From: the human T2T-CHM13v2.0 reference genome, Homo sapiens
Reading direction: 5' to 3' (one strand)
DNA: 64,000 nucleotides
NCBI RefSeq assembly: GCF_009914755.1
Contig: NC_060927.1
Below, one piece after another: positions 15,898 to 16,033 of this stretch; the first letter of the stretch is position 1; the number at the start of each line of letters is the position of its first letter. The notes under the pieces are model-generated. The model saw only the letters and a program-made list of their open reading frames with translations. It ran no database searches and was not told the DNA's origin. A program made the position numbers and the translations under genes.

Positions 15898-16033
15898 TGC
15901 CAGTTACATTCTAAATCCCTGTAGCAGCATTTCAGGGAAACAGTTTGTCAATATTACTTTCCTTTGTCAAATCCGTGAAATAGCAGTTGATTTCTTAAAA
16001 TAAATCTCAAGCTATAAAATGTTAAAAAAAAAA

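What the first reader, a model, noticed from the sequence alone, without database searches (positions are those of the whole stretch)
15898..16023. 126-bp 3' transduction: a barcode for the parent L1
Seen: after the L1 A25 tail comes non-L1 sequence (TGCCAGTTACATTCTAAATCCC...ATAAAATGTT). It has AATAAA 19 nt before a second A tail and lies inside the AAGATCGTGTC TSDs. Known: this is the signature of read-through of the weak L1 poly(A) signal. Inference: the segment comes from the flank of a source L1 elsewhere and defines a transduction family.
Basis: partly seen in the sequence, partly recalled or inferred. Interest (0 to 1): 0.82.

Follow-up and report, generated by a model that had tools for sequence, protein, structure and literature searches.

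The report
Published spliced L1 with 3' transduction
A young, human-polymorphic L1 retrotransposon in a COL6A6 intron carries 126 bases copied from chromosome 4; this is a textbook 3' transduction that was already catalogued in 2018, so the finding is real but ordinary.

Summary
An L1 body is followed by A25, a 126-bp non-L1 tag (15898-16023, AATAAA 19 nt before its end) and a second A-rich tail. All of this lies between perfect 11-bp target-site duplications. The tag has exactly one other copy in this genome, on chr4 (125/126). There it starts right after TTT/AAAAAAA, an L1-endonuclease-type site, and ends at the same poly(A) site. T2T-CHM13 has no L1 body within 20 kb upstream or 10 kb downstream of that chr4 copy, and no sibling insertion carries the tag. 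The parent L1 is therefore inferred, not seen.

The gap runs from GT to AG, so the element was copied from a spliced L1 RNA.

The element is already in print as SpIRE(97-790)-3 (Larson et al. 2018, PMC5860796). That entry records the transduction ("126 bp present on chromosome 4") and presence/absence polymorphism in people.

Verdict: a real 3' transduction, already known, low interest. The one open point is whether the chr4 parent still exists in human populations.

The parts
10543..10553 (+). 5' target-site duplication AAGATCGTGTC, preceded by TTTT (bottom-strand nick site TCTT/A)
   Evidence: The 11-mer occurs only here and at 16085 in the window. Larson S1 Table gives TSD 11 and TCTT/A.
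10554..10554 (+). One extra G between the duplication and the L1
   Evidence: Larson S1 Table: '5' 1 untemplated'.
10555..10639 (+). L1 5'UTR up to the splice donor. It starts about 12 nt into the L1 and ends ...CATCTGAG.
   Evidence: In unspliced copies the next bases are GTACCGGG.
10640..15872 (+). Rest of the L1 after the splice acceptor (ACCTGCAG...): remaining 5'UTR, ORF1 10760-11776 (338 aa), ORF2 11840-15667 (1275 aa), and the 3'UTR with its own AATAAA at the end
   Evidence: One search shows both frames open. (Pfam): Transposase_22 7.2e-66, RVT_1 8.6e-48, Exo_endo_phos 1.6e-20.
15873..15897 (+). First A tract (A25), read as the parent L1's genomic poly(A) tail plus the A's of the chr4 site
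   Evidence: run length 25. The chr4 empty site has A7 at the matching place.
15898..16023 (+). 126-bp transduced tag copied from chr4
   Evidence: 99% identity to G000:C4:178148665-178148790 (+); the single mismatch is at 15941 (C here, T on chr4).
15999..16004 (+). AATAAA poly(A) signal used instead of the L1's own, 19 nt before the end of the tag
   Evidence: On chr4 the homology ends at the same base (...AAAATGTT|TCTCATAGG).
16024..16084 (+). Second poly(A) tail, 61 nt: A10, TAAA repeats, then A's
16085..16095 (+). 3' target-site duplication AAGATCGTGTC

Best explanation
This is one L1 retrotransposition event, made by target-primed reverse transcription, that copied an unusual RNA. A parent L1HS of the Ta type sat on chr4, in + orientation, inserted at the site TTT/AAAAAAATGCCAG.

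One of its transcripts underwent two processing events:
- About 690 nt of the 5'UTR was spliced out, from the donor after nt 97 to the acceptor before nt 790.
- The transcript ran through the weak L1 poly(A) signal. It was cleaved 126 nt into the chr4 flank, 19 nt after an AATAAA.

That RNA was reverse-transcribed into a TCTT/A nick in a COL6A6 intron. The result was: 11-bp target-site duplication, G, spliced L1, A25, 126-bp chr4 tag, new poly(A) tail, target-site duplication.

Shown: the anatomy, the chr4 origin of the tag, the GT...AG borders of the missing 5'UTR piece, the open ORFs, and (from print) the presence/absence polymorphism in people.

Inferred: that an L1 once sat, or still sits in some people, at the chr4 site. 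T2T-CHM13 carries the empty allele there.
For: 1. The whole unit lies between perfect 11-bp duplications that occur nowhere else in the window. The upstream one follows TTTT.
2. The tag has one other copy in 3.1 Gb (2 of 2 scored candidates match, self and chr4).
3. On chr4 the tag is continuous with unique flanks on both sides. It has no A-tail after it and no duplications around it, so the direction of copying is chr4 to chr3.
4. The chr4 homology starts exactly after GCTTTAAAAAAA. On the bottom strand this reads TTTT/A, the L1 endonuclease consensus (recalled). BLAST extends the match through the A7, giving 133 nt at 99.25%. This is what the 3' duplication of a parent L1 would look like in the empty allele.
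5. The chr4 homology ends 19 nt after AATAAA, at the base where the new tail begins.
6. The missing 5'UTR piece starts GT and ends AG in an unspliced copy, L020. A junction-spanning query finds 4 full-length matches among the 40 candidates scored (of 1338). These are chr3 (the window itself), chr11, chr9 and chr1. They fall on the same chromosomes and at similar positions as the four reference SpIRE97/790 of Larson et al. The other 36 match only downstream of the junction.
7. In print, Larson et al. [quoted passage not shown] The main text gives 41% homozygous filled, 35% heterozygous and 24% homozygous empty.
8. 3' transduction is common: about 25% of insertions carry one (abstract of PMC13009371, search listing). 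Non-reference parents are known, for example chr6:13190801 with 21 offspring (PMC9311842 passages).
Against: - No L1 body lies within 20 kb upstream or 10 kb downstream of the chr4 tag in this assembly. One search gave 8 HSPs: one is the A7+tag match, and the other 7 are 29-58-nt matches of the query's A-rich 3' end (tag end and second tail) to L003 on chr4. None comes from the L1 body.
- Larson's table does not say the chr4 copy follows an L1, although it does say so for another element's chrX copy. The parent is therefore probably absent from the reference used in Larson's table (by its coordinates GRCh38, my inference) too.
- No sibling with the tag, or with the next 800 nt of chr4 flank, exists in this genome.
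- The tag differs from chr4 at one base (15941).
- I could not examine any other human or ape assembly.
Confidence: 0.9

Rival explanations
1. Two-RNA chimera. Reverse transcription started on the poly(A) tail of an ordinary chr4 transcript that ended at this AATAAA site. It copied 126 nt. At the A7 run the T-rich cDNA end jumped onto the poly(A) tail of a separate spliced L1 mRNA (or the two RNAs had been ligated) and copied that too. On this reading no parent L1 ever sat on chr4.
For: No L1 lies at or near the chr4 site in this assembly. The junction falls at an A run, which could supply the microhomology for a jump. L1 chimeras with other RNAs are documented (bioRxiv 10.1101/2025.02.02.635956, passages).
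Against: In the documented chimeras the foreign RNA lies 5' of an L1 3' end, so the L1 RNA is the primary template (passages). Here the foreign piece lies 3' of a nearly whole L1 that includes its tail, which is the arrangement that defines 3' transduction. The chr4 junction is also preceded by TTT, which makes a full endonuclease-type site; a jump has no need of that. This rival needs a germline chr4 transcript that I could not show, and trans-mobilisation of a non-L1 RNA, which is rare (established knowledge).
Confidence: 0.05
2. Two successive insertions. A plain spliced L1 inserted first. Later, a heavily 5'-truncated retrocopy of a chr4 transcript (126 nt plus tail) inserted into the L1's own poly(A) tail, and its A-only duplications are hidden in the A tract.
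For: Poly(A) tracts are good L1 endonuclease targets (established knowledge). The structure A25-tag-A tail would look the same.
Against: It needs a rare trans-mobilised retrocopy to land in a 25-nt target inside a young polymorphic element. The coincidence of the truncation point with the chr4 TTT/A7 site stays unexplained. Larson et al. describe filled and empty alleles only, with no intermediate allele, although their genotyping was not designed to see one.
Confidence: 0.01
3. The parent on chr4 was itself already a spliced, promoter-poor L1 (a SpIRE) transcribed from an upstream promoter. On this reading the splice was inherited rather than made in the transcript that inserted on chr3.
For: Nothing direct. 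The parent has not been seen, so its 5'UTR is unknown.
Against: Larson et al. screened 2,453 genomes for non-reference SpIRE97/790 and list four, on chr12, chr9, chr14 and chr12. None is on chr4. One of these has its transduction source directly downstream of a full-length L1 on chrX, which shows that the splice arises anew from unspliced parents. The abstract and text conclude that SpIREs are retrotransposition-deficient.
Confidence: 0.03

Closest known systems
SpIRE(97-790)-3 of Larson et al. 2018 (PLoS Biol 16:e2003067, PMC5860796)
   Same: It is this very element. The gene (COL6A6, same orientation), the 11-bp duplication sequence, the single extra 5' base, the 97/790 junction, the nick site TCTT/A, and a transduction with a 126-bp chr4 copy all match. 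The flanking and junction sequence printed in their S1 Data matches the window.
   Different: Nothing biological. This window is the T2T-CHM13 copy. I add four points: the chr4 site is empty in CHM13 over 30 kb; the chr4 junction is a TTT/A7 site; CHM13 has no siblings; and both ORFs are open in CHM13.
Classical L1 3' transduction (Moran 1999; Goodier 2000; Pickeral 2000; the first recalled, the last two seen only as references in Larson)
   Same: L1 with its own tail, then unique flank sequence, then a downstream poly(A) signal and a second tail, all inside one pair of duplications.
   Different: The carrier L1 is also spliced in its 5'UTR, and the parent is missing from the assembly searched.
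L1 transduction families used as lineage barcodes (RP, AC002980 and LRE3 lineages; Macfarlane 2013, family names recalled, paper seen only as a reference)
   Same: A unique tag that could in principle identify all offspring of one parent.
   Different: Those families have several members and a known parent. This tag has one carrier and no visible parent in this genome.
U6/L1 and other RNA/L1 chimeras (bioRxiv 10.1101/2025.02.02.635956)
   Same: Two sequences of different origin inside one pair of duplications.
   Different: In those chimeras the foreign RNA is 5' of a truncated L1 3' end. Here it is 3' of a nearly whole L1 and its tail.

Membership tests
L1 3' transduction | L1 3' end with its own poly(A) signal and A tract, followed by non-L1 unique sequence | tested here: met
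   The tag has 2 copies in the genome.
L1 3' transduction | The extra sequence ends in a second poly(A) tail shortly after a poly(A) signal | tested here: met
   AATAAA at 15999-16004, 19 nt before the 61-nt tail.
L1 3' transduction | One pair of target-site duplications encloses L1 plus extra sequence, at an endonuclease-type site | tested here: met
   The 11-mer lies at 10543 and 16085 only, preceded by TTTT.
L1 3' transduction | The extra sequence maps to a second locus, where it is ordinary continuous DNA | tested here: met
   chr4 178148665-178148790, 125/126.
L1 3' transduction | A full-length parent L1 lies directly upstream of the second locus | tested here: not met
   No L1 body lies within 20 kb upstream or 10 kb downstream in T2T-CHM13. 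This covers one haploid genome only. The site looks like the empty allele of a polymorphic insertion (TTT/A7). Other human genomes could not be searched with these tools.
Transduction family (several offspring sharing one tag) | At least two independent insertions carry the same tag | tested here: not met
   One search found only this insertion and the chr4 original. In one search, the next 800 nt of chr4 had 135 matches from 40 scored of 173 candidates, and all except the self-match lie in a CA-rich stretch (query 160-247). This covers one genome only.
SpIRE97/790 (spliced integrated retrotransposed element) | 5'UTR deletion whose ends coincide with a splice donor (GT after nt 97) and an acceptor (AG before nt 790) | tested here: met
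   In the unspliced copy L020 the missing 695 nt start GT and end AG. The second copy, L021, shows a gap of about 688 nt. The junction is identical in 4 of 4 spliced copies aligned.
SpIRE97/790 (spliced integrated retrotransposed element) | Hallmarks of retrotransposition (duplications, tail, endonuclease site), showing that the deletion was in the RNA | tested here: met
   The element is listed as SpIRE(97-790)-3.
   The sequence reads GATGACACATTAG and CTTAGAGTAT. It alone lacks one base in GAC-GGTG among 6 copies aligned. This is consistent with Ta-1d, but I had no reference set of subfamily consensus sequences. Larson lists it as PA1.

The most novel reading that the evidence does not exclude
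The unseen chr4 parent was itself a spliced, promoter-poor L1 that was transcribed from neighbouring DNA and still produced offspring. Spliced L1s would then not always be evolutionary dead ends, and this tag would mark such a lineage. A milder and more likely version, at about 0.4, is that an ordinary full-length parent still segregates at the chr4 site in some people and can be tracked with this tag.
Probability: 0.03. Interest if true: 0.5.

Novelty: already known. Interest (0 to 1): 0.1.

Why it matters
Little is new here. The element, its splice, its transduction, the chr4 match and its polymorphism in people were published in 2018.

The residual value is practical:
- The 126-bp tag, the C/T difference at 15941 and the exact chr4 coordinate give a precise place to look in long-read pangenomes for a non-reference parent L1.
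- The element is a clean example of one L1 RNA that was both spliced and read through.
- It sits in the sense orientation in a COL6A6 intron with open ORFs. An annotated alternative COL6A6 exon runs into it, which may matter for COL6A6 transcript structure in carriers.

Tried and rejected
- Siblings or orphan transductions. I searched the genome with the tag and with the next 800 nt of chr4 flank. Nothing turned up beyond simple-repeat hits.
- A parent L1 near the chr4 copy. I BLASTed the whole insertion against chr4 from -20 kb to +10 kb (after fetches). No L1 body was found.
- A splice from a distant upstream L1 into the tag. I rejected this because no AG precedes the chr4 junction and an A tract lies between the L1 and the tag.
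- Literature on a chr4 parent or on COL6A6. A full-text search for COL6A6 + transduction + LINE-1 gave 3 papers, 2 listed, neither relevant. A search for 4q34.1 / transduction / source element listed no paper holding '4q34.1'.
- Main-text look-ups for chr4, chromosome 4 or COL6A6. These found nothing in PMC9311842, PMC7058536 or PMC5668948. A published chr4 parent therefore cannot be ruled out.
- A search for printed Ta-1d diagnostic positions gave nothing usable.
- Earlier findings of this scan were not open.
The only evidence on the empty chr3 allele is Larson's read-based genotyping.

Full report
**What is in the sequence**

Reading 9700-10700 and 15600-16200 and a script check give this order on the + strand:
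- TTTT
- AAGATCGTGTC (10543-10553)
- one extra G (10554)
- L1 sequence from 10555 to 15872
- exactly 25 A (15873-15897)
- 126 nt that are not L1 (15898-16023)
- a 61-nt A-rich tail made of A10, TAAA repeats and more A (16024-16084)
- AAGATCGTGTC again (16085-16095)

The 11-mer occurs nowhere else in the 64-kb window. The 126-nt stretch holds one AATAAA (15999-16004), 19 nt before the second tail.

**Where the tag comes from**

A search of the window's own 3.1-Gb assembly with the 126 nt found two places out of two candidates scored: the window itself and chr4:178148665-178148790, + strand. The two differ at one base, window 15941 C against T.

On chr4 the stretch is ordinary continuous DNA. 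It has unique sequence on both sides, no tail after it and no duplications around it. The copying therefore went from chr4 to chr3.

The two ends of the chr4 homology are informative:
- It begins right after GCTTTAAAAAAA. Read on the bottom strand this is TTTT/A, the L1 endonuclease consensus (recalled knowledge). BLAST carries the match through the seven A's (133 nt, 99.25%).
- It ends at ...AAAATGTT|TCTCATAGG, exactly where the new tail starts on chr3, 19 nt after the AATAAA.

This is what the empty allele of a parent L1 site and its first usable downstream poly(A) site should look like.

**What is not there**

I BLASTed the whole insertion (10554-16084) against chr4 from 20 kb upstream to 10 kb downstream of the tag (loci L003, L015, L002 and L004). 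This gave 8 HSPs. One is the A7+tag match. The other seven are 29-58-nt matches of the query's A-rich 3' end (tag end and second tail) to L003 on chr4. None comes from the L1 body. T2T-CHM13 therefore has no L1 there.

No other insertion carries the tag. The next 800 nt of chr4 flank have no second copy either. That search scored 40 of 173 candidates and gave 135 matches; all but the self-match fall in a CA-rich stretch at query 160-247. In this genome the 'family' has one member and no visible parent.

**The carrier L1**

At 10639/10640 the 5'UTR jumps from ...CATCTGAG to ACCTGCAG....

A 205-nt query across this junction found 1338 candidates, of which 40 were scored. Four matched over the full length: chr3 (the window itself), chr11, chr9 and chr1. 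The other 36 matched only from query base 84 on, that is, downstream of the junction.

In two ordinary copies (L020, L021) the two halves lie about 695 and 688 nt apart. In L020 the intervening piece begins GT and ends AG. An alignment of the four spliced and two unspliced copies shows the same junction in 4 of 4 spliced copies, and GTACCGGG continuing in 2 of 2 unspliced ones. The L1 was therefore copied from a spliced RNA.

Both reading frames are open: ORF1 of 338 aa at 10760-11776 and ORF2 of 1275 aa at 11840-15667. They carry the expected L1 domains (Pfam Transposase_22, RVT_1, Exo_endo_phos).

The 3'UTR reads GATGACACATTAG and CTTAGAGTAT. The copy alone lacks one base in GAC-GGTG among the six aligned. 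I had no reference set to test it properly.

**It is already published**

Larson et al. 2018 (PLoS Biol, PMC5860796) define spliced integrated retrotransposed elements. I saw passages of the main text and supplementary files 1 and 2.

Their S1 Data prints this locus with the same flanks, duplications and junction. Their S1 Table lists it as SpIRE(97-790)-3:
- subfamily PA1, chr3:130628673, 5331 bp
- COL6A6, same orientation
- nick site TCTT/A, TSD 11, '5' 1 untemplated'
[quoted passage not shown] The other three junction-spanning matches in CHM13 fall on the same chromosomes, and at similar positions, as their other three reference SpIRE97/790.

[quoted passage not shown] For this one it says only that a copy is on chromosome 4. 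This suggests that the reference they used also lacks the parent.

**Mechanism**

The best-supported account is a single target-primed reverse transcription event that copied an RNA from a chr4 parent L1. That RNA had been spliced in its 5'UTR. It had also bypassed the weak L1 poly(A) signal and used the AATAAA in the chr4 flank instead.

Shown here are the anatomy, the donor locus, the splice-site borders and the open frames. Shown in print is the population polymorphism. The parent's existence is inferred.

The inference is reasonable on three grounds:
- About a quarter of L1 insertions carry a transduction (abstract of PMC13009371 in the listing).
- Thousands of L1 loci are polymorphic: 7103 in 3,202 genomes.
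- Prolific non-reference parents are known, such as chr6:13190801 with 21 offspring (PMC9311842 passages).

**Rivals**

1. *A two-RNA chimera made by template jump or ligation.* The empty chr4 site and the A-run junction allow it. But documented chimeras put the foreign RNA 5' of an L1 3' end (bioRxiv 10.1101/2025.02.02.635956 passages), which is the opposite arrangement. This rival also leaves the TTT before the A run unexplained. I give it about 5%.
2. *A second, tiny retrocopy inserted into the L1's tail.* The structure allows it, but the prior odds are extremely poor. About 1%.
3. *A parent that was itself spliced.* Not excluded, because the parent is unseen. However, Larson's screen of 2,453 genomes lists four non-reference SpIRE97/790 and none is on chr4. 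About 3%; this varies the nature of the parent and does not contradict the transduction.

**Limits**

The source-element tables of the population and cancer surveys could therefore not be read.
- The main texts of those surveys do not mention chr4 or COL6A6. Two full-text searches gave nothing relevant.
- A published chr4 parent may therefore exist in tables I could not see.
- Earlier notes of this scan were not open.

**Verdict**

The parent and any family remain unshown in this genome, and the whole structure is already catalogued. Interest is low and the novelty class is 'already known'.

Noticed in passing
window 10639/10640 (L1 5'UTR): The carrier L1 lacks about 690 nt of its 5'UTR between a GT donor and an AG acceptor, so it is a spliced L1 copy (SpIRE97/790). 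The finding as given did not mention this. CHM13 holds four junction-spanning copies among the 40 candidates scored (of 1338).
   Followed up: yes
window 10417-12992: The hub's gene table lists an exon of another COL6A6 transcript at 10417-12992. It starts just after an AG preceded by a T-rich tract (TTTTTTATCCAG|TAGGG), 126 nt upstream of the 5' target-site duplication. It then runs through the L1 5'UTR remnant and all of ORF1. It ends in ORF2, 8 nt after an AATAAA (12979-12984), inside an A-rich stretch. The sense-oriented, polymorphic L1 thus appears to supply an alternative terminal exon. The end inside an A run could also be an internal-priming artefact.
   Followed up: partly
window 10760-15667: Both L1 reading frames are open in the CHM13 allele (338 aa and 1275 aa), even though most of the promoter region is missing. 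The element could supply L1 proteins if transcribed from COL6A6.
   Followed up: partly
window 16024-16084: The second poly(A) tail has turned into a TAAA microsatellite flanked by pure A runs. Larson's table gives 186 bp for tag plus tail against 187 here, so the tail length may vary between assemblies.
   Followed up: no
window 10594 and 15941: This copy has two differences: T in CCCTGCG of the 5'UTR, where 5 of 5 other copies aligned have A, and C at 15941, where chr4 has T. These could serve as lineage markers when a parent candidate is found.
   Followed up: no
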